Assembly: GCF_003334385.1 (NCBI RefSeq)
Contig: NZ_QOWN01000059.1
Reading direction: 5' to 3' (one strand)
Source of the DNA: Escherichia coli
Lineage (GTDB): Bacteria > Pseudomonadota > Gammaproteobacteria > Enterobacterales > Enterobacteriaceae
DNA: 27,104 nt
Shown: in pieces, positions 9,111 through 24,315 of the stretch
How positions within the stretch are numbered: the first letter of the stretch is position 1
How the letters are laid out: every line of letters starts with the position of its first letter
Made by a program: the position numbers and the translations under genes
The notes under the pieces: model-generated
Seen by the model: only the letters and a program-made list of their open reading frames with translations
What the model was told of the DNA's origin: nothing
The model's database searches: none

Positions 9111-9466
9111 TACTGGTAATCCCCTTCTTCACCGTGGAACTCAAGATCAACCGTGCCTTCTTCGGCATTATGGTTCGCTTCGCCGTGCAGCCAGGCGGAC
9201 GACAATACATAGACCTGACCGTTCGCCAGCTCGGCAGTGATGGTCATCTCATCAGACGAGGTGATTTTGCTCACCGGAAAATTCTTCGGCACCTTGAAGG
9301 TCCCTTTGACATAAGGCGCACGGTGAGTTTCCTTGCGGTCCACTGAACCGTCCAGGCCGATGATGTCATCATTGACCGTCCTGTTCATGGGCACCTCAAT
9401 GCCGCCGGTCAGCGATAGCTGCTGACCGTCAATTTTGAAATAACAGGTTCCCCCGATACGGGCCAT
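9110..9466 (-). CDS. Tail tube protein (Mu gpM-like)
   Basis: 118-aa ORF immediately after the sheath gene, with stop/start overlap. Confidence 0.7.
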   Translation of the reverse strand: MARIGGTCYFKIDGQQLSLTGGIEVPMNRTVNDDIIGLDGSVDRKETHRAPYVKGTFKVPKNFPVSKITSSDEMTITAELANGQVYVLSSAWLHGEANHNAEEGTVDLEFHGEEGDYQ

Positions 9467-10962
9467 TATGCAGACTCCTCTGAATACTGAAGACGGAACT
9501 GGTTAACCACGGCAAAAACACGCAACTGGTTAACATAGTCAGGCGGGAACAGCGTGTTCAGGCGGTTCGGATCGCTGGCATCACGCTCAACAACCAGGTA
9601 CTGCTTAAACAGTTCGTAGTTTTCCACGATCCCCGCACGCTCAAGCTGACGGTAGGTTGCCAGCAGTTCCCCTTTGATTACCGCCGGGGTGACAATCGCC
9701 TGACCGGGACCAAAGCGGGTACCGTCGCTGGCAAGCTTGTGACGCCCGTACTTACTGGTAATGACGGATTTCAGTTTGCGCAGTACATACGCACTGGTAT
9801 GCAGCGTCTCGCTGTCGAGGTAGCTGTTATCCGCAACCCCGTAAGCATTTTTCCTGTACGTGGTGACATCACGCTGAATGCGCAGCCCCCCGCTTTCGAC
9901 ATACGCCGTTGCCACGCCATGAGACAGCAGGGTCTGCTGCTCGGTCATCGTGAACCGTTTCCCCTTCGGCGCAGGCAGCATACCCACCAGCTCACCGGTC
10001 TGCGTGGGACGTGCCGGATCGTTGCGGATAAACACCGCTGCGCGGGCGGTACGGCTTGCCGCCAGCTCGTCGGCAGGCGTCTGGGTCTCTTTTTCGTACC
10101 CCGCCAGGGTGATGTGCTGCTGGTTAAACTGGTCACCTGCGTTCACCAGTTCTGACAGTGTGCCGGTCTTTGCCGTATACACATGACCATACAGCTGACG
10201 CGCATAGCTCCAGCGACCGCTGGTATCGTTCATCTCGGTCACCAGCGTGTTAACGGAGGCCGTGTCGTTGAACGGCAGACCGATATAATCAAACGGCTCA
10301 TCCGCCATTGCAGCCACCGCGCCGGTGAGAACCGGAGCGCCCGTTCCGGCGGTCCCCGTCGCCACGGCAATCTGTACGCCCGCTGGCAGCACTTCACCCC
10401 CACCGAAGCCGTAGTAATTGAGGCTGACAGGAATTTCATTCCCGCAAAGCCCCTTATGACGCGCGGTCAGCGTGACAACACCAGCCGAAGATGAAGCTGT
10501 AAACGGCAGAGTCGGAACGGCATTGATAGCATCCTGGATACTGCTGGCAATCGTCGTGACGTTATCGCCGTTGGTCACCGGAGCCTGCACGCGGGTACGT
10601 CCCACATAGACATTCACCGTGCCGCTTTCGGTTGCTTCCCCGGTCACCGTCAGCGTAACCGTTGCCGCCGCGCCTGTGGATTCAGGAACGGCAATCACAT
10701 ACAGCTCGCCAAACGGGTCAGTCTGGCGATAAGCCTCGACCATACGCGCCAGCTGACTTCCCGCACCACAAATCTGGCGTGCATAGTCTGCCGACGGCAT
10801 CAGTACCAGACTGTTGGCAACAATCTCTGCACCGTTATTGGCATGACCAATCAGCAGCGATGCTCCGCTGTCCTGTGCAGTATTCGCCGCCTGGTTATCC
10901 ATTTCCGCATAAAACAACGGAACCAGCGTATTCGACGGAATGGTGTTAAAGCTTATCGTCAT
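9466..10962 (-). CDS. Contractile tail sheath protein (Mu gpL-like)
   Basis: 498-aa ORF followed by the tube and chaperone genes; size and order match Mu-like sheath genes. Confidence 0.8.
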   Translation of the reverse strand: MTISFNTIPSNTLVPLFYAEMDNQAANTAQDSGASLLIGHANNGAEIVANSLVLMPSADYARQICGAGSQLARMVEAYRQTDPFGELYVIAVPESTGAAATVTLTVTGEATESGTVNVYVGRTRVQAPVTNGDNVTTIASSIQDAINAVPTLPFTASSSAGVVTLTARHKGLCGNEIPVSLNYYGFGGGEVLPAGVQIAVATGTAGTGAPVLTGAVAAMADEPFDYIGLPFNDTASVNTLVTEMNDTSGRWSYARQLYGHVYTAKTGTLSELVNAGDQFNQQHITLAGYEKETQTPADELAASRTARAAVFIRNDPARPTQTGELVGMLPAPKGKRFTMTEQQTLLSHGVATAYVESGGLRIQRDVTTYRKNAYGVADNSYLDSETLHTSAYVLRKLKSVITSKYGRHKLASDGTRFGPGQAIVTPAVIKGELLATYRQLERAGIVENYELFKQYLVVERDASDPNRLNTLFPPDYVNQLRVFAVVNQFRLQYSEESA

Positions 10963-11116
10963 CGGTGTTCACCTTTTTATTCACGCGCCGGATATCACCC
11001 GCTGCTTCACGGCGCAGCCAGTAGTTGTTCTCGTCAACATTTCGCCCTTCGGCGGGCAAAAGGTCGCCGCGGGCAGGGTCAGGCACTGACCGCCCTTTAA
11101 CAGGTTTGACAAACAT
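10946..11116 (-). CDS. Small conserved protein preceding the sheath gene (DUF2635-like); not in the supplied ORF track
   Basis: 56-aa ORF (MFVKPVKGRSVPDPARGDLLPAEGRNVDENNYWLRREAAGDIRRVNKKVNTDDDKL) translated by hand. GAGGA lies 5 nt upstream of the ATG and the stop overlaps the sheath start. Confidence 0.5.
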   Translation of the reverse strand: MFVKPVKGRSVPDPARGDLLPAEGRNVDENNYWLRREAAGDIRRVNKKVNTDDDKL

Positions 11117-11124
11117 GAGGATCC

Positions 11125-11685
11125 TCAGGAAGGAAGGGTTATTTCGGTGTGATGTTCGATATCGCCGTCAGGCCCGTTACCGGGATCGAGATAATCAACA
11201 TCAATCGCCAGCGTTCGCAGTTCATCCAGACTGTTCAGATCATCCTGCTGGCGGGTATCGTCTTCAGTCAGCTCGCTGATGACCGAAAAATCGAACTGAT
11301 AAATCAGCTCATGACGATTCAGATCCAGCAGCGTGCCGCCGTCATAGGTAATCGGGTTACCGCACGCTTCCGGGTTCCAGCCCAGCAGGGCCTTAAAGAG
11401 CATCTGCCGGACATCGTCCACCACATCATACGAGGCAAACTGACCGCGCTCATCACGCCCGTTACTCAGTATGACAACCACGGAGAAGCCCTCTTTCAGC
11501 TCCTGCCAGTAGTCGGTCTGGCTTTTGTTTTCTCCCGGAGAGTCATCACCCGGTACCACATACGCCGCCGGGAGTCTCAGCTTTCCGACCTCCGGCAGAT
11601 TTTTGAACTGTGCCGCGCCTGCCACCCGGTTTTCAAAATACGGGCAGCGGGCACGCAGCGCAGCAATAACAGGCGTCAGTTTCAT
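11125..11685 (-). CDS. Tail completion/terminator-type structural protein (Mu gp37-like), function uncertain
   Basis: 186-aa ORF between the neck genes and the sheath module. Confidence 0.4.
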   Translation of the reverse strand: MKLTPVIAALRARCPYFENRVAGAAQFKNLPEVGKLRLPAAYVVPGDDSPGENKSQTDYWQELKEGFSVVVILSNGRDERGQFASYDVVDDVRQMLFKALLGWNPEACGNPITYDGGTLLDLNRHELIYQFDFSVISELTEDDTRQQDDLNSLDELRTLAIDVDYLDPGNGPDGDIEHHTEITLPS

Positions 11686-12188
11686 CTGTGTCGTCGCTCC
11701 GGCTTCAGTGATTTACGCAATTCCCGCGCCAGAAAATAGCGTGTCCAGCTGCGGTTCTTTTCAAGAGTTTCCACCATGAAGTTATTACGTGGAGCCAGTC
11801 GCCAGCCGCTGCCACCGGATGCACCACGATGATGACTACGACGACGTTTTGCTCCTCCCCGGACACCAAAAAACAGAAATGCCGGATAGAAGTCACCAGA
11901 GATCATCCGGTTCCCCTTCCCGTTGCGCTGGTTAGGGGCAATGCGTGTCATAAAACCGGCTCGCTTTTTACTGGCTCTCGGCACCATATAACCAATCGAA
12001 CGAGCCAGGCGTCCGGTCTGATAACCGGGGTTTTCACCTGGTGCCGACCGCGCACGGCGCATCACCAGCCGACGGGCATCACGCATATGACGCTGCCCAA
12101 TCGTGACAAACGCCCGCCGGACACGGGCGCGGTTAAAGCGCATCTCGGCGGGCTGCTGAACATCAACGTGAAAAAAGGGAGTCGCCAT
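11682..12188 (-). CDS. Virion morphogenesis/neck protein (HK97 gp10-like), function uncertain
   Basis: 168-aa basic protein in the head-tail joining region. Confidence 0.4.
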   Translation of the reverse strand: MATPFFHVDVQQPAEMRFNRARVRRAFVTIGQRHMRDARRLVMRRARSAPGENPGYQTGRLARSIGYMVPRASKKRAGFMTRIAPNQRNGKGNRMISGDFYPAFLFFGVRGGAKRRRSHHRGASGGSGWRLAPRNNFMVETLEKNRSWTRYFLARELRKSLKPERRHR

Positions 12189-12573
12189 TGCTGCCTCCGT
12201 GACTCTGCCTACATTCGCCCAGCTCCGTACACTCCAGCAGCAGAAAGCGCCGCGCCCCGTTCAGATCACGCTGACGTTTCACCCGGTACACACTGTCATC
12301 ACAGACCACCTCATAATCAGCAGTGATCCCCCGGCGGTAACGAATGGTGATGTAATGGGTGATGGCGTCCCCGGTCTGCGCGGTTTCCTGCCAGGTGGTG
12401 GCACTGGTCTGGATAACCTTCGCCCATGTCCGGAACGTAACCGGGTATTGAGGCTCCACGCCAAAGTTATCCGCGGGCATATCCACCCGCTGGCGGATCA
12501 GGACGCGTTTATTCAGTTCACCGGGGTCCGGCAGAATGTAGGTTGCGCTGGTCTGCGCCTGACGAATTTTCAT
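12163..12573 (-). CDS. Head closure/head-tail adaptor protein
   Basis: 136-aa ORF directly after the connector gene. Confidence 0.5.
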   Translation of the reverse strand: MKIRQAQTSATYILPDPGELNKRVLIRQRVDMPADNFGVEPQYPVTFRTWAKVIQTSATTWQETAQTGDAITHYITIRYRRGITADYEVVCDDSVYRVKRQRDLNGARRFLLLECTELGECRQSHGGSNGDSLFSR

Positions 12574-12893
12574 TGCGGAAAGTACCTGTACGGGCCGACA
12601 AGCCAGCCAAAACTCTGCGGCATGTCGAGTTTCTCCACTTCCGTAACCGACGAGCGGTTTTCGTAAAAATGGCTGATAAGCATCAGCATCCCCAGACGAA
12701 TATCATCCGGCAGGTGCAGCCCGTCCGGATCGCTGTCCGGAATGGTTTCATTCGGTGCATAGAGCTTCCGGTTCAGATACGTTTCCGTCCGCTTTTGTGC
12801 CGCACAGGCCAGCAGTTGCAGATGGCGGTCATCAGCATCGAAATCCTCATCCAGCCGGAGTTGGGCTTTAATCTCTTCCATTGTCAGAAGCAT
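12570..12893 (-). CDS. Head-tail connector protein (gp6-like)
   Basis: 107-aa ORF with N-terminus MLLTMEEIKAQLRLDEDFDADD, typical of gp6-like connector proteins; follows the capsid gene. Confidence 0.65.
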   Translation of the reverse strand: MLLTMEEIKAQLRLDEDFDADDRHLQLLACAAQKRTETYLNRKLYAPNETIPDSDPDGLHLPDDIRLGMLMLISHFYENRSSVTEVEKLDMPQSFGWLVGPYRYFPQ

Positions 12894-12895
12894 AC

Positions 12896-13096
12896 TCAGC
12901 CCTCTTTACTGGTCGTGGCTTTTTTCTCTTTTGCCGCTTTACTGCTTTTTGCACTGATTCCGCGCTCTGCTAACCCGGCCTGAAGTGCAATCTCCTGCAC
13001 CCGGGCAGGAAGTGCCCCGTCGTCATACTCACCGGCCCGAATGACCTCAACACGCATACCGTCCGGTGACCATTTCAGATCTTGTTTCAGGATCAT
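12896..13096 (-). CDS. Hypothetical small protein between capsid and connector genes
   Basis: 66-aa ORF that fills the intergenic space exactly, with a GGTGA ribosome-binding site upstream. Confidence 0.4.
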   Translation of the reverse strand: MILKQDLKWSPDGMRVEVIRAGEYDDGALPARVQEIALQAGLAERGISAKSSKAAKEKKATTSKEG

Positions 13097-13145
13097 GATT
13101 CTTCACCCGTCAGAACAGGGGGCGCGGTTCCGCGCCCTTGAGTGA

Positions 13146-14351
13146 TTACGCCGCTGCAATCTTCAGCAGTTTGATGGCCTGCGAATCGACCAGCATCCCG
13201 CCGGTGCGCTTGGTGGTATAAAAACCGACAAACGGTTTATTGGTGTACGGGTCACGCAGAATGCGGGTGCCGATACGGTCAACGATGGTGTAACCCCGTT
13301 TGAAGTTACCAAATGCAATGGCTTTCGCATCAGCGGCGATATCCGGCATCTGTTCGTTTTCAGCGATACCGTAACCCGCCAGAGAGGACGGCTGCCCCAG
13401 TTCCAGCCCCGGACGCCACAGATAGTTACCCTCGCTGTCTTTAAGCAGACGGATGGCAAACAGGCTGTTGTTGTTCATCATGAACTTCGCGCCAGTGCGG
13501 TGTGCCTTACGCAGCGTGTAAATCAGTTTGATAATGGCGTCTGCGGTCACCGCGGTCGCTTCGCCGGATACAATATGCTGAAGTTTGCCGAACGCCCGGA
13601 CCTTGTCGGTTTCATCAGTGGATTCATACGCCAGGAACCCTTTCGGCTTCTTGGTGCCATCGCCTGAGGTAAAGGCAATTTCTTCCTGTTCGGCAAATTC
13701 GGTTGCCAGCTCGCTGTTGATCCAGGCCTCCACGTTGAAGAAGGCATCGTCCAGCATTTTCTGGGTAGCCTGCGGGTTGCCGTAAATTTCCCCCATGAGA
13801 GGTTCAATCAGCTCCAGTCTGGAGGTGGCAGTCTGGGATCGCGTATCCGTTTCCCCCACCCATCCGGAAGCCGTACCGCCCAGATTCGCCAGTTTTTTGT
13901 AGTCGGAACCGCCAACGGTGATCACCGTGGCTTCCTGACGCATCACCACTTCATCTTTCAGCAGGTTAAGAATGTTGCGATCCAGTTCTTCCGGCACGGC
14001 GTAGCCACCGTCTTCATCGGTACCCACCTGCAATGCCTTACGCTCCAGATCGCGCAGACCGTCTTCACGGCCTTTACGCAGGAAGCCCACAAACGCCTCT
14101 TTATGCTCGGTGGCCAGTTTATTTTGCGCTCCACCAGCCGGACGTTTCAGCTCAAGCAGCTCTTTTTCAAGGTCGCTTTTGAGATTTTCCAGCTCGCTGA
14201 GTTTCCCGTTCAGGGTTTCCACCTGCCCGGCAAGCTTGCCTTTTTCCTGCTCAATCGCATCCACGCGCTTGTCGTTCTTTGCTTTGAAGTCGTCAAACTT
14301 CTGCTGCAGCTCCTGCGCGACCTGTTCGACATCTTTAATATCAACCGCCAT
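13146..14351 (-). CDS. Major capsid protein, HK97 fold with N-terminal coiled-coil delta domain
   Basis: 401-aa ORF after the prohead protease; its N-terminal ~100 aa are a charged coiled coil (VEQVAQELQQKFDDFKAKNDKRVDAIEQEKGKLAG...). Confidence 0.8.
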   Translation of the reverse strand: MAVDIKDVEQVAQELQQKFDDFKAKNDKRVDAIEQEKGKLAGQVETLNGKLSELENLKSDLEKELLELKRPAGGAQNKLATEHKEAFVGFLRKGREDGLRDLERKALQVGTDEDGGYAVPEELDRNILNLLKDEVVMRQEATVITVGGSDYKKLANLGGTASGWVGETDTRSQTATSRLELIEPLMGEIYGNPQATQKMLDDAFFNVEAWINSELATEFAEQEEIAFTSGDGTKKPKGFLAYESTDETDKVRAFGKLQHIVSGEATAVTADAIIKLIYTLRKAHRTGAKFMMNNNSLFAIRLLKDSEGNYLWRPGLELGQPSSLAGYGIAENEQMPDIAADAKAIAFGNFKRGYTIVDRIGTRILRDPYTNKPFVGFYTTKRTGGMLVDSQAIKLLKIAAA

Positions 14352-21475: not shown

Positions 21476-23254
21476 GTGAGTGAAATCAGAAAGTTAAAAG
21501 GGCTAATGAATACAAATGCTATTGAGCCGTTCATTCGCCATATACGGTTTCCGTATTTTAAAAATCTTGAAGAATATAGCACTATACATTTTCACTATCC
21601 TATTACTGCATTAGTTGGTCAAAATGGAACCAATAAAAGCTCAGTATTACGTGCATTATATGGTTCTCCAAATAATTATTCCTTAGGAAATCTTTGGTTT
21701 TCAACTGATCTAGACGAGATTAAAGATGGTGGTCGTTCTAGATTTATTTATGGATACTATGATTCCGCATCTAAAGATGTTGTTGAAGTAATAAAAACAA
21801 GGATTGTAGACAAGGAGGATCCTGATTTATGGGAAACTTCGAGACCTCTAACTAAAGATGGTATGAAAAAAATACCAACAGATATTATTTCGCCAAATCA
21901 GCAAAAATCACGCTGGAAACAGATAGACAAAATTGTCACATATATTGATTTTAGAGCTTCGATCAGTGCATTCGATAAATTCTTTTATCATTCGGACTTT
22001 GATCTTTATCCAAAGAAAAATCACCTGAGAAAAAGAAGCCATCTTCTTAAAGAGATAATAGATAAAGGCCTAACATCATACAAGCCCTTTAAAGGTAAAA
22101 AAGAAAGGTTGTATAAGAATGAATTACTTTCTCAAGAGAAGGTAGAAATCATCAGCGATATACTTGGTAGACCTTACAAAACAATTAGACTTATTGAGCA
22201 TGCCTTATTTACAAACAATAAGGCTTCAACCGTTATTTTAGAGTCTCATAGTCTCAACTACTCCGAGGCTTTTGCAGGAAGTGGGGAGTTTGCAGTAACT
22301 ATTCTCGTAAATCAAATTGTTAACGCGCCAACAGCATCATTAATTCTTTTAGATGAACCCGAAGTCTCACTTCATCCAGCAGCACAGTTTAAATTGATGT
22401 CTTTTCTAAATAAGATTTGCTTAAAAAACAAACATCAAATTGTTATTTCAACACACTCATCATCTATAGTTAGCCAACTACCTAAGGAAGCCATAAAACT
22501 TTTTAATCTTAATTCAAACTCAGGAAAAGTTAGTATAGTTGAAAACGTTAGCCCTGAGGAAGCTTTCTTTACGCTTGGAGACCGACTATCAAAAAAAACT
22601 ATCTTTGTAGAAGATAAACTGGCTAAAAAATTCGTTGAGAAGGCTTTAAAATCAGGAGGTCCTGCCCTAGCCAATACATTTGATGTTATATATTGCCCAG
22701 CTGGTGCAAGCACATTATTAGGTAATATGATTGTCTCATTATTTTTATCAAGAGTTGATAATGCGGTATTTTTATTGGATGGTGATCAGAAGACAAGCCA
22801 TGATTTCATTACATCAGCCTTAATACCAAGCAGTGAAGATAATTCTTTAAATGAAAAAATAAAAAATATTCTTGGGTGTGAAATTAAAATACCAACTGAT
22901 GGGCATGGTGGAACTCCAAATAAACAGCAGAAGATTCAACTTCAGCGTGATTTCATTGATTTTTCATATAATTATGTAGGGTATTTACCTATCATTAATC
23001 CAGAAACTTTTTTGATTGACAATCTTCCGGCTTTTTACTCCGATATGATTAAAGATTTAAACTTATCAAAACTATCACCAAAATCAATAATTGCAGAAAT
23101 ATGTAAAAGAGACATAGAAAATAACGTTATAACTTCGGATGATATTTTCGCAACACAAATCAGGATACTAACCCGAATACCTGAGAATCATGTCGCATTT
23201 TCTGAAACGAGAGAAATGCTGAAATTTTTCCTTGAACATGGTAAGATAAGATAA
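21476..23254 (+). CDS. ABC-type ATPase with C-terminal TOPRIM-like nuclease domain (OLD/PARIS/Gabija-like architecture)
   Basis: 592-aa ORF. Walker A GQNGTNKSS (residues 48-56), Walker B LILLDEPE (289-296), H-loop ISTHS (324-328), then TOPRIM-like FVED (E379) and LLDGDQ (D435, D437). Visibly AT-rich. Start may be the GTG at 21476 or the ATG at 21506. Confidence 0.7.
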   Translation: MSEIRKLKGLMNTNAIEPFIRHIRFPYFKNLEEYSTIHFHYPITALVGQNGTNKSSVLRALYGSPNNYSLGNLWFSTDLDEIKDGGRSRFIYGYYDSASKDVVEVIKTRIVDKEDPDLWETSRPLTKDGMKKIPTDIISPNQQKSRWKQIDKIVTYIDFRASISAFDKFFYHSDFDLYPKKNHLRKRSHLLKEIIDKGLTSYKPFKGKKERLYKNELLSQEKVEIISDILGRPYKTIRLIEHALFTNNKASTVILESHSLNYSEAFAGSGEFAVTILVNQIVNAPTASLILLDEPEVSLHPAAQFKLMSFLNKICLKNKHQIVISTHSSSIVSQLPKEAIKLFNLNSNSGKVSIVENVSPEEAFFTLGDRLSKKTIFVEDKLAKKFVEKALKSGGPALANTFDVIYCPAGASTLLGNMIVSLFLSRVDNAVFLLDGDQKTSHDFITSALIPSSEDNSLNEKIKNILGCEIKIPTDGHGGTPNKQQKIQLQRDFIDFSYNYVGYLPIINPETFLIDNLPAFYSDMIKDLNLSKLSPKSIIAEICKRDIENNVITSDDIFATQIRILTRIPENHVAFSETREMLKFFLEHGKIR

Positions 23255-23280
23255 ATTTTAGATTATTATAGAGACAGATC

Positions 23281-24315
23281 ATGAAGAAAAAAATCAAAGT
23301 TTTTGACTTCTTTTCAGGATGCGGGGGAACAAGCAAAGGCCTTAAAGAGGCTGGGTGCGAAATTTTCTTCGGTCTCGATTATGATTATGACTCTGGTCAA
23401 ACCTTTCAGGCAAATAATCCTGATGCTATATTTTTTAATGAGGATATACGCTCCGTTAAGTTAAATGATTTATTTCAGCTTGTAAAAAAAGCGAAGCAAG
23501 ACTCACATGTTTTGTTTTGTGGTTGTGCTCCATGTCAACCGTTCTCAAGGCAAAATAAAAATAAAAGCAAAGAAGATCCTCGAAGAGGATTATTAAACGA
23601 ATTTGGTCGTTTTATCGAGTACTATTGTCCTGATTATGTACTGATAGAAAATGTTCCAGGATTACAAAAAGTTGATATTAACGATGGACCATTGCATGAT
23701 TTTATAACTCTTCTGAAAAAGAAAGATTATAATTTAGCTTATGGTGTGATTCCCGCTTTATGGTACGGAGTGCCTCAAACCAGAGAGCGTTTTGTTCTTA
23801 TGGCCTCACTTCATTCCCCAATCCATCTACCAGAGCGCACGCATAATGGCGAAGATATCCCATTTGCGACGGTAAGAGATTGGATCGGAAATATACCACC
23901 AATTGAGGCAGGTGAATCACATCCTACATTACGAGATCATGTTAGTGCAAAACTCTCTGCTTTAAATCTTAAAAGAATTAAAGCAACGCCAGAGGGTAAA
24001 GGTCGAGAGTTTTGGCCTAAAGAGTTGTTACTTGAATGTCATAAAAACCATACAGGTCACAGCGATGTATATGGCCGATTAGCATGGGATAAACCTGCTA
24101 GTGGATTAACTACAAGATGCATTAGTTACTCTAACGGAAGATTTGGCCATCCTGAGCAACACCGGGCAATTTCTGTTCGCGAGGCTGCACTGCTACAAAC
24201 ATTTCCATTGGATTATATATTCATCGGTTCAATGCTTTCTAAAGCTAAACAAATTGGTAATGCAGTCCCACCTAAAATGGCGGAGTCTATAGGGCATGTT
24301 TTTATGAATATTTAG
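23281..24315 (+). CDS. DNA cytosine-5 methyltransferase
   Basis: 344-aa ORF with C5-methyltransferase motifs in order: FDFFSGCGG (motif I), GCAPCQPFS (catalytic Cys85), LIENVPG, QTRERF and QIGNAVPP. Starts 26 nt after the ATPase gene. Confidence 0.9.
   Translation: MKKKIKVFDFFSGCGGTSKGLKEAGCEIFFGLDYDYDSGQTFQANNPDAIFFNEDIRSVKLNDLFQLVKKAKQDSHVLFCGCAPCQPFSRQNKNKSKEDPRRGLLNEFGRFIEYYCPDYVLIENVPGLQKVDINDGPLHDFITLLKKKDYNLAYGVIPALWYGVPQTRERFVLMASLHSPIHLPERTHNGEDIPFATVRDWIGNIPPIEAGESHPTLRDHVSAKLSALNLKRIKATPEGKGREFWPKELLLECHKNHTGHSDVYGRLAWDKPASGLTTRCISYSNGRFGHPEQHRAISVREAALLQTFPLDYIFIGSMLSKAKQIGNAVPPKMAESIGHVFMNI

What the first reader, a model, noticed from the sequence alone, without database searches (positions are those of the whole stretch)
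10946..11116. Unlisted 56-codon gene upstream of the sheath gene
This ORF is below the 60-aa cut-off of the supplied track but has a GAGGA ribosome-binding site, a stop overlapping the sheath start, and sequence character (MFVKP...LPAEGR...NYWLRR) that I recall from the small DUF2635-type proteins that precede Mu-like sheath genes.
Basis: partly seen in the sequence, partly recalled or inferred. Interest (0 to 1): 0.3.

Follow-up and report, generated by a model that had tools for sequence, protein, structure and literature searches.

The report
Known small tail gene (DUF2635)
The 56-codon reading frame is a real, strongly conserved phage gene, the counterpart of phage Mu gp38 and SfV orf10 (Pfam DUF2635). 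It is already annotated in public genomes, so the find is ordinary, although nobody yet knows what the protein does.

Summary
Confirmed and ordinary.

**What is there**
- The ORF lies on the minus strand (10946-11116) and encodes 56 aa.
- A GAGGA ribosome-binding site sits 5 nt upstream of the ATG.
- Its last 17 nt overlap the sheath gene's start.

**Identity**
- It matches Pfam DUF2635 (E 1e-16) and PHROG 208 (E 4e-26).
- It is 100% identical to SfV orf10 and 42% identical to Mu gp38.
- RefSeq annotates it in 1070 of 5426 complete E. coli genomes.

**Evidence that it is a gene**
- dN/dS is 0.06-0.28 across related phages.
- The ORF is intact in 80 of 80 related viral contigs.
- The order terminator, DUF2635, sheath, tube is conserved across phages with unrelated head modules.

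**Function**
Function is experimentally unknown; these clues bear on it.
- Headless SfV-type (Rp4) tailocin clusters of Pseudomonas keep the gene, so it belongs to the tail module, not to head joining.
- It is absent from the near-atomic Mu virion model. Its probable counterpart, gp125 of phage 7-7-1, is absent from that phage's virion model and virion proteome.
- Rare variants fuse the domain to PKD or fn3 domains.

My best inference, at moderate confidence, is a small docking or assembly accessory protein acting at the terminator/sheath end of Mu-type tails. It would not be retained as an ordered stoichiometric virion part. Novelty: already known. Interest: low.

The parts
10946..11116 (-). 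DUF2635 gene, the SfV orf10 / Mu gp38 orthologue; 56 aa plus stop
   Evidence: ORF listing. Pfam PF10948 i-E 1.1e-16. phrog_208 E 3.6e-26. 100% identical to SfV NP_599042.1. dN/dS 0.06-0.28.
10982..11116 (-). Codons 1-45: the conserved folded domain (strand 2-5, helix 31-39, strand 42-45)
   Evidence: In alignment A1 of 129 sequences, W33 is invariant and P5, D13, P14, G24, V27, R35 and R36 are conserved at >=90%. AlphaFold2 pLDDT is 93-97 over residues 1-40, mean 87.7.
10949..10981 (-). Codons 46-56: variable, predicted-disordered charged C-terminal tail (NKKVNTDDDKL)
   Evidence: Mean pLDDT about 55 over residues 51-56, and 78 for the 41-50 block. Across the family the tails have a median length of 21 aa, are A/K/P/E-rich, and 63% have >=2 K/R in the last 8 residues.
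11122..11126 (-). Shine-Dalgarno GAGGA, 5 nt upstream of the ATG, overlapping the terminator gene's TGA stop
   Evidence: Read directly from the sequence.
10946..10962 (-). 17-nt out-of-frame overlap between the end of the DUF2635 gene and the sheath start codon
   Evidence: Sequence. Related loci overlap by 4-20 nt, 52 of 80 by exactly 17 nt.
10970..10975 (-). AAGGTG, the likely ribosome-binding site of the sheath gene, embedded in codons 48-50 of the small ORF
   Evidence: Sequence; the function is inferred.
11125..11685 (-). Upstream neighbour: tail terminator protein (186 aa)
   Evidence: Pfam PF23840 Phage_tail_terminator E 2.5e-26, with a weak Gp37 PF09646 match at E 0.0016. PGAP names it 'phage tail terminator protein'.
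9466..10962 (-). Downstream neighbour: Mu-type tail sheath (498 aa)
   Evidence: phrog_165 tail sheath E 1.6e-231. 37% identical to Mu gpL in alignment A2.
9110..9466 (-). Tail tube protein (118 aa), next gene in the module
   Evidence: phrog_185 E 1.1e-44.

Best explanation
This is the SfV orf10 / Mu gp38 orthologue. It is a 56-aa DUF2635 protein translated from the late tail operon, from its own GAGGA site, between the tail-terminator and sheath genes.

Shown:
- It is a genuine gene under purifying selection.
- It consists of a confidently predicted 45-residue alpha/beta mini-domain plus a disordered charged tail.
- It travels with the Mu/SfV-type terminator-sheath-tube module whatever the head type.
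- Headless tailocins retain it.

Inferred: the conserved domain is a small docking module that binds a component at the terminator/sheath (head-proximal) end of the tail. In its short form it would act as a tail-assembly accessory factor, for example by holding sheath or terminator subunits competent, or by capping the free tail end. It would then be released, or remain disordered or sub-stoichiometric, rather than become an ordered stoichiometric part of the finished particle.

Confidence by step:
- Real gene and DUF2635 member: about 0.97.
- Function intrinsic to the tail module: about 0.8.
- Assembly accessory not retained in ordered form: about 0.45.
For: Identity:
- Pfam DUF2635 and phrog_208.
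- 100% identical to SfV orf10 and 42% identical to Mu gp38.

Coding:
- dN/dS is 0.06-0.28, with third-position bias such as 2/4/20 differences.
- The ORF is intact in 80 of 80 IMG/VR loci, with 29 protein variants.
- There are 252 distinct 50%-identity clusters.

Tail-module linkage:
- The order terminator, DUF2635, sheath, tube is seen in Mu, BZS1, PG1, phiAP1, PBb002, BgVeeders33, ST64B, EPP-1, YeP1 and AH07. These carry HK97-like, lambda E/D-like or Mu T-like head modules.
- Headless Rp4-type tailocin clusters begin exactly with terminator, DUF2635, sheath. Examples are P. fluorescens Q8r1-96 and P. protegens. The literature states that these clusters lack head genes.
- The adjacent P2-type tailocin has no such gene.

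Not an ordered virion part:
- The Mu virion reconstruction at 3.3-3.8 A assigns the neck, terminator, sheath and tube but 'could not resolve' gp38.
- No DUF2635 sequence occurs in any PDB entry, by single-sequence or profile search.
- Phage 7-7-1 gp125 is the positional counterpart and a probable remote relative (Foldseek prob 1.0; hhalign E 1.3e-4).
- gp125 is missing from the 24-protein virion proteome, which did detect a 3.2-kDa protein and both flanking gene products.
- gp125 is also missing from the 3.0-3.6 A models of that phage.

Fold: a confident compact domain with a disordered tail.
Against: - No experiment on any DUF2635 protein was found.
- Absence from cryo-EM models and from one proteome is negative evidence. 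A flexible, sub-stoichiometric or purification-labile protein would also be missed.
- Homology of 7-7-1 gp125 is weak: hhalign probability is 54% and hmmsearch finds no hit.
- About 5% of family representatives carry the domain at the N-terminus of longer proteins with PKD, fn3 or other large C-terminal regions. These lie among neck and virion-structural genes. That pattern is typical of virion-displayed proteins and fits a permanently attached anchor better than a released chaperone.
- Retention in tailocins shows tail linkage but not which step is affected.
Confidence: 0.5

Rival explanations
1. It is a permanent but low-copy or flexibly attached virion component. The conserved domain would anchor on the terminator ring or the top of the sheath (a collar position) and the C-terminal tail would project outward. 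In long variants that tail is replaced by adhesin-like PKD or fn3 domains, giving neck appendages.
For: - In all 8 long representatives among the 150 listed, the domain is N-terminal and is followed by PKD (P0192), fn3 (P0157) or large uncharacterised regions (P0262, 737 aa).
- These genes sit between the head-tail adaptor and head-closure genes, beside proteins matching 'virion structural protein' PHROGs and a discoidin-domain protein.
- In locus L011 the fusion is the only DUF2635 copy, and the terminator and sheath genes abut with no small gene between them. This suggests functional replacement.
- The Mu authors list gp38 as 'probably structural'.
Against: - It was not seen in the Mu neck/terminator/sheath maps at 3.4-3.8 A.
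- The probable 7-7-1 counterpart was not seen in maps or in the virion proteome.
- No PDB chain carries the domain.
- Each fusion is known from a single metagenomic contig.
Confidence: 0.3
2. It is the 'sheath terminator', as the current Mu GenBank record labels gp38. On this view a ring of the small protein caps the last sheath layer, analogous to T4 gp15 or P2 gpS.
For: AF083977.1 annotates Mu_38 as 'putative sheath terminator protein', with no reference given. The gene's position between the terminator and sheath genes fits the idea.
Against: [quoted passage not shown]
- In 7-7-1, the terminator's C-terminal arm likewise contacts the sheath.
Confidence: 0.05
3. It is a head-tail joining (neck) factor needed only when tails dock to filled heads.
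For: It lies at the boundary between the neck genes (adaptor, head closure, Neck1) and the tail genes. The fusion variants lie among neck genes.
Against: Headless tailocin clusters have lost the portal, adaptor, head-closure and Neck1 genes but still keep it directly after the terminator gene. It is widely conserved in fluorescent Pseudomonas.
Confidence: 0.05
4. The peptide has no function of its own. On this view the ORF is a chance frame, or matters only as a translated leader that couples ribosomes onto the sheath gene.
For: There is a tight 4-20 nt overlap with the sheath start, and the sheath's ribosome-binding site lies inside the ORF.
Against: - Strong amino-acid-level constraint: dN/dS 0.06-0.28.
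- An invariant Trp and seven positions conserved at >=90% across 129 divergent sequences.
- A confident predicted fold.
- The domain persists when relocated and fused elsewhere in the genome.
Confidence: 0.02

Closest known systems
Mu gp38 (Mup38) / FluMu gp38 / SfV orf10: Pfam DUF2635 (PF10948), PHROG 208
   Same: It is the same family by profile. It is 100% identical to SfV orf10 and 42% identical to Mu gp38. It has the same size class and the same position between the terminator and the Mu-type sheath.
   Different: Nothing material differs. The C-terminal tail differs in sequence, as it does throughout the family. The overlap with the sheath gene is 17 nt here and 4 nt in Mu.
Sheath-terminator / tail-completion proteins (T4 gp15, P2 gpS)
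   Same: The gene lies next to the sheath gene in the tail-end part of the operon, and the Mu GenBank record borrows this label for gp38.
   Different: From general knowledge, those proteins are much larger and form rings seen in particles. DUF2635 is a 45-residue domain that is not seen in Mu virions, where the terminator gp37 caps the sheath. No sequence or significant fold similarity was found.
Tail assembly chaperones (lambda gpG/gpGT, Mu gp41/gp56)
   Same: This compares how it may work, not membership. Both are small proteins encoded inside the tail operon that are absent from the finished Mu particle model. The Mu authors list gp41 together with gp38 as unresolved.
   Different: There is no sequence relation. 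Chaperones of that class lie between the tube and tape-measure genes and use a programmed frameshift. DUF2635 lies between the terminator and sheath genes, with no frameshift evident.
Agrobacterium phage 7-7-1 gp125 (J7FAS5, 68 aa)
   Same: It occupies the same slot: terminator gp124, gp125, sheath gp126, tube gp127. It is the best BFVD structural match (prob 1.0, TMq 0.72). hhalign to the family profile gives E 1.3e-4, with the W...RL..GD[IV] segment aligned.
   Different: It falls below HMMER detection and hhalign probability is only 54%, so membership is unproven. It is uncharacterised, undetected in the virion proteome and unmodelled in cryo-EM.
Small alpha/beta domains with a similar fold: GINS B-domain, B. 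subtilis prophage protein YqbF N-domain, lambda gpFI C-domain, ribosomal L9 N-domain

Membership tests
Pfam DUF2635 (PF10948) | Significant match to the family HMM over essentially its whole length | tested here: met
   i-E 1.1e-16, 60.7 bits, query residues 3-47 against model positions 1-45 of 46.
Pfam DUF2635 (PF10948) | Family-conserved residues present (P5, D13-P14, G24, V27, W33, R35-R36) | tested here: met
   All are present in the window protein. W33 is invariant and the others are conserved at >=90% in the 129-sequence alignment A1.
Pfam DUF2635 (PF10948) | Homology to the founding members (Mu gp38, FluMu gp38) | tested here: met
   tblastn against Mu gives 42.3% identity over residues 3-54, E 9e-7, landing on Mu_38. 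The SfV record notes 'similar to phage Mu GP38'.
Pfam DUF2635 (PF10948) | Genomic context: between the tail terminator and the Mu-type sheath gene | tested here: met
   In the window, the terminator is at 11125-11685 and the sheath at 9466-10962. The same order holds in 12 distinct phages and in 80 of 80 IMG/VR loci.
PHROG 208 (unknown function) | Match to the PHROG profile | tested here: met
   E 3.6e-26, residues 1-55 against profile positions 4-59 of 64.
NCBIfam curated families | Match to any curated NCBIfam model | tested here: not met
   No family matched at E <= 0.01. PGAP's name 'DUF2635 domain-containing protein' therefore presumably comes from the Pfam-derived model, which is my inference.
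Sheath terminator / tail completion ring (the label used for Mu gp38 in AF083977) | Forms an ordered ring capping the last sheath layer in the particle | tested here: not met
   This was tested only through published structures. In Mu, the last sheath ring is capped by the gp37 C-terminal hairpin and gp38 is unresolved. No DUF2635 chain exists in the PDB.
Virion structural protein (generic) | Physically present in purified particles | not testable with these tools
   Only indirect evidence exists. Mu gp38 is not modelled. The probable 7-7-1 counterpart is not detected by MS or cryo-EM. No proteomic data on SfV-type virions or Rp4 tailocins were found.
Tail assembly factor (generic) | Required for correct tail assembly but absent from the product | not testable with these tools
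   No mutant data were found. Retention in headless tailocins is consistent with the role but not decisive.

The most novel reading that the evidence does not exclude
DUF2635 is a portable about-45-residue docking module specific to Mu/SfV-type contractile tails and the tailocins derived from them. In its common short form it would be a transient assembly or capping factor for the head-proximal tail end, invisible in finished virions. In rare phages the same module would have been recruited as the anchor that hangs PKD or fn3 adhesin-like domains on the neck. That would assign a first function to a family present in about a fifth of complete E. coli genomes and in many Pseudomonas tailocin loci.
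Probability: 0.35. Interest if true: 0.35.

Novelty: already known. Interest (0 to 1): 0.12.

Why it matters
For genome annotation it matters little. The gene is already in Pfam, PHROGs and RefSeq, and the window is a common SfV-like E. coli/Shigella prophage.

The residual value is twofold.
- It shows that a 60-aa ORF cut-off hides real, conserved structural-module genes. Some deposited records (phiP27, SfIV) still omit this one.
- DUF2635 remains one of the few universally conserved genes of the Mu/SfV tail module without an assigned role. Engineered tailocins of the Rp4 type carry it, so knowing whether it is needed for assembly or stability would be of practical use.

The observations assembled here narrow the hypotheses and point to cheap experiments. 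These are retention in headless tailocins, absence from two virion structures, and the PKD/fn3 fusions.

Tried and rejected
- **Literature.** Searches for 'DUF2635' and 'Mup38' found no papers. 'FluMu protein gp38', 'tailocin + gp38' and 'Mu + gp38 + sheath' returned only annotation mentions, apart from the Mu cryo-EM paper. PMID 29767456 (Mu neck subunits) is not held. Table S1 of the R-syringacin paper is not held, so the P. syringae B728a orthologue could not be confirmed from the paper.
- **PDB by sequence.** The single sequence and the 129-sequence profile gave nothing except a chance low-complexity hit to a RAGE peptide at E about 1.
- **Related loci.** The search for related loci with the DUF2635 alignment failed because no stretch was conserved enough. 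I used a sheath alignment instead, but the 80 loci returned were mostly close relatives (73-99% sheath identity).
- **Co-folding.** I considered co-folding the protein with the terminator or sheath as a linker fusion, using the second AlphaFold job. I did not run it because the tool returns no coordinates or PAE (one search shows no model files), so an interface could not have been evaluated.
- **Terminator comparison.** Pairwise BLAST of the window terminator against Mu gp37 found no similarity. The relationship is visible only at profile level, so terminator/DUF2635 co-divergence could not be used as an argument.
- **Transcription signals.** The promoter/terminator scan of 9000-13300 found no promoter-like sites and no more terminator-like sites than shuffles give. 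There is no evidence for a separate transcription unit.

Full report
**1. The observation**

Reading the window shows an ORF on the minus strand at 10946-11116. It has an ATG start, 56 codons and a TAA stop, and translates to MFVKPVKGRSVPDPARGDLLPAEGRNVDENNYWLRREAAGDIRRVNKKVNTDDDKL.
- GAGGA lies at 11122-11126, five bases before the ATG. It overlaps the TGA stop of the upstream 186-aa gene.
- The ORF's last 17 bases overlap, out of frame, the ATG (10960-10962) of the 498-aa sheath gene. An AAGGTG that probably serves the sheath gene lies inside the small ORF.
Only the strand (minus) was left unstated.
- ORF length alone is not evidence: 55 ORFs of at least 30 aa overlap this 5-kb stretch.

**2. 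What it is**

The protein matches Pfam DUF2635 (PF10948) over the whole model at i-E 1.1e-16. It matches PHROG 208, 'unknown function', at E 3.6e-26. No curated NCBIfam model matches.

The window is an SfV/SfII/SfI/SfIV-like prophage, 96-99% identical over this region.
- The protein is 100% identical to SfV orf10 (NP_599042.1), whose record already says 'similar to phage Mu GP38'.
- Mu gp38 itself is 42% identical (E 9e-7).
- RefSeq annotates the gene as 'DUF2635 domain-containing protein' in 1070 of 5426 complete E. coli genomes. It is flanked by 'phage tail terminator protein' and 'phage tail sheath ... protein'.
- The upstream gene is confirmed as a tail terminator (PF23840, E 2.5e-26). The downstream genes are sheath and tube.

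**3. Is the frame conserved?**

- An exhaustive HMMER search of 1.84 billion cluster representatives finds 252 distinct 50%-identity clusters at E <= 1e-3.
- An alignment of 129 of them has an invariant Trp (W33). P5, D13, P14, G24, V27, R35 and R36 are conserved at >=90%.
- Across six enterobacterial phages with 61-81% nucleotide identity, dN/dS over the first 45 codons is 0.06-0.28. Differences pile up at third positions, for example 2/4/20 for window against ST64B.
- In 80 of 80 IMG/VR loci recovered through the sheath gene, an intact DUF2635 ORF lies directly upstream of the sheath.
- In those loci it starts 3-21 nt after the terminator stop in 78 of 80. It overlaps the sheath ATG by 4-20 nt. 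There are 29 distinct protein variants.
- The frame is conserved, and the gene is real.

**4. Anatomy of the protein**

AlphaFold2 with the 129-sequence alignment gives a confident compact mini-domain (mean pLDDT 87.7).
- pLDDT is 93-97 over residues 1-40.
- The elements are strand 2-5, helix 31-39 and strand 42-45.
- The tail is low-confidence: the last six residues average about 55, and the 41-50 block averages 78.

Across the family the domain is always N-terminal, with a median leader of 1 residue. The C-terminal tail has a median length of 21 aa, is A/K/P/E-rich and often ends in lysines.

Fold searches found nothing significant.

**5. Context across phages and tailocins**

The order terminator, DUF2635, Mu-type sheath, tube, chaperone, tape measure holds in Mu, Serratia BZS1, Stutzerimonas PG1, Acetobacter phiAP1, Bordetella PBb002, Burkholderia BgVeeders33, ST64B, EPP-1, YeP1 and AH07. 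Their head modules differ: HK97-like, lambda D/E-like or Mu T-like. The gene therefore belongs to the tail module.

The most informative case is the SfV-derived (Rp4-type) tailocins of Pseudomonas.
- The literature describes them as lacking integrase and head-morphogenesis genes.
- The P. fluorescens Q8r1-96 cluster has Orf9 (annotated only as a hypothetical bacteriophage protein, but in the terminator position), Orf10 (DUF2635) and then the sheath.
- In P. protegens the Mu-type tail block starts, right after a chitinase cargo gene, with Phage_tail_terminator, DUF2635, sheath. It runs through to the fibre gene with no portal, adaptor, head-closure or Neck1 gene.
- The adjacent P2-type tailocin has no DUF2635.
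- Orthologues are widespread in fluorescent pseudomonads.

A role restricted to head-tail joining is therefore unlikely. The function is intrinsic to the tail.

**6. Is it part of the particle?**

The 2025 whole-virion cryo-EM study of Mu (PMC11915804) built models for capsid, portal, adaptor gp36, terminator gp37, sheath gp39, tube gp40 and the baseplate at 3.3-3.8 A.
- It states that gp35, gp38 and gp41 are 'probably structural' but could not be resolved.
- This undercuts the label 'putative sheath terminator protein', which the current Mu GenBank record gives gp38 without a reference.

No PDB chain contains a DUF2635 sequence, whether queried with the single sequence or the profile.

The best structural match among predicted viral proteins is Agrobacterium phage 7-7-1 J7FAS5.
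- I take this to be gp125, on the basis of organism and length. gp125 is the 68-aa gene between terminator gp124 and sheath gp126.
- hhalign to the family profile gives E 1.3e-4 at 54% probability. HMMER does not detect it.
- I treat it as a probable remote relative and a certain positional counterpart.
- gp125 is not among the 24 virion proteins found by MS. That set includes a 3.2-kDa protein and the products of both flanking genes.
- It is also absent from the 3.0-3.6 A models of that phage's neck, terminator, sheath and tube.

All of this is negative evidence. It is consistent across two independent systems.

**7. A counter-current**

Eight of the 150 listed representatives are long proteins with the DUF2635 domain at the N-terminus.
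- P0192 carries PKD domains (175 aa), P0157 carries fn3 (402 aa), and P0262 is 737 aa with no other Pfam domain.
- In their contigs these genes lie between the head-tail adaptor and head-closure genes. Their neighbours include proteins matching 'virion structural protein' PHROGs and a discoidin-domain protein, with the same Neck1 family as the window.
- Each locus has a single DUF2635 copy. In L011 the terminator and sheath genes abut with no small gene between them.
- From general knowledge of phage Ig-like domains, such domains are typical of virion-displayed proteins. In these phages the DUF2635 module most plausibly anchors a larger protein on the particle.

**8. Synthesis**

Shown:
- A real gene, a DUF2635 member, and part of the Mu/SfV-type tail module.
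- Retained in headless tailocins.
- Not an ordered stoichiometric component of the Mu virion model.

Inferred: the conserved domain is a docking module for a component at the terminator/sheath end of the tail. The short form behaves as an assembly or capping accessory that is released, or remains disordered or sub-stoichiometric.

I give the assembly-accessory reading about 0.45-0.5. A permanently attached low-copy neck or collar component gets about 0.3. The 'sheath terminator', 'head-joining only' and 'leader only' readings are unlikely for the reasons above. Tight overlap with the sheath start suggests translational coupling, but gene packing is tight throughout these operons, so I give it little weight.

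**9. Novelty and score**

The gene, its family and its position are already in public databases, so the novelty class is 'already known'. Function remains open. The tailocin retention, the absence from two virion structures and the fusion architectures give testable hypotheses but are not a discovery in themselves. Interest: 0.12.

Noticed in passing
window 21476-24315 (+ strand): A two-gene cassette lies opposite in orientation to the surrounding phage genes. The first gene encodes a 592-aa OLD/ABC-type AAA ATPase (PADLOC HEC-04 1e-34, ATPase-Toprim_I-B 2e-27, PtuA/GajA/AriA-like). The second encodes a 344-aa C5 cytosine DNA methyltransferase (TIGR00675 5e-40). It sits between the ORFs I take, from position only, to be the lysis genes and the HNH/regulator genes. 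It is a candidate prophage-borne defence or moron cassette.
   Followed up: partly
window 8700-9110 (- strand): The 89-aa gene after the tube gene (8841-9110) matches only the first half of a 201-position 'tail protein' PHROG. A second frame stays open across its 3' end and runs to the tape-measure start at about 8699. This fills the apparent 141-nt gap and looks like the usual programmed-frameshift extension of a tail assembly chaperone, as annotated for Mu gp41/Mu_56. The SfV record annotates only the short form.
   Followed up: partly
window 12896-13096 (- strand): Another small conserved gene (66 aa, phrog_1020, E 2e-44, unknown function) lies between the major capsid and head-tail adaptor genes. 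ST64B sb7 and a YeP1 hypothetical protein occupy the same slot.
   Followed up: partly
window 6245-6775 (- strand): A 176-aa ORF (phrog_5485, unknown function, no PADLOC or NCBIfam match) sits between the tape-measure gene and the DNA-circulation gene. In SfV those two genes are adjacent, so this looks like an insertion into the tail operon.
   Followed up: partly
L004 (phiP27 NC_003356, locus 2501-2662) and SfIV NC_022749 / KC814930, record 7619-7786: These deposited phage records leave the DUF2635 gene unannotated. In SfIV, tblastn finds it at 100% identity. In phiP27 it is an intact 53-aa ORF in the 'gap' between L43 and the sheath gene L44.
   Followed up: yes
L010 3036-4244; L011 1093-1620; L002 1580-3793; L012 769-1575: Metagenomic phage contigs carry the DUF2635 domain as the N-terminal module of longer proteins: +fn3 (402 aa), +PKD (175 aa), a 737-aa protein and a 268-aa protein. 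In L010 and L011 the gene has moved to between the head-tail adaptor and head-closure genes. L011 has no small gene between the terminator and the sheath.
   Followed up: partly
L100 3733-3939 (Agrobacterium phage 7-7-1 gp125): A 68-aa hypothetical protein lies between the terminator gp124 and the sheath gp126. It is a probable remote DUF2635 relative (Foldseek prob 1.0; hhalign E 1.3e-4; not found by HMMER). It is not currently assigned to the family, and it is absent from that phage's virion proteome and cryo-EM models.
   Followed up: partly
L003 2492-2695 (Mu_38 in AF083977.1): The current Mu GenBank record labels gp38 'putative sheath terminator protein' without a reference. The 2025 Mu virion structure shows the terminator gp37 capping the sheath and does not resolve gp38, so the label is unsupported.
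   Followed up: yes
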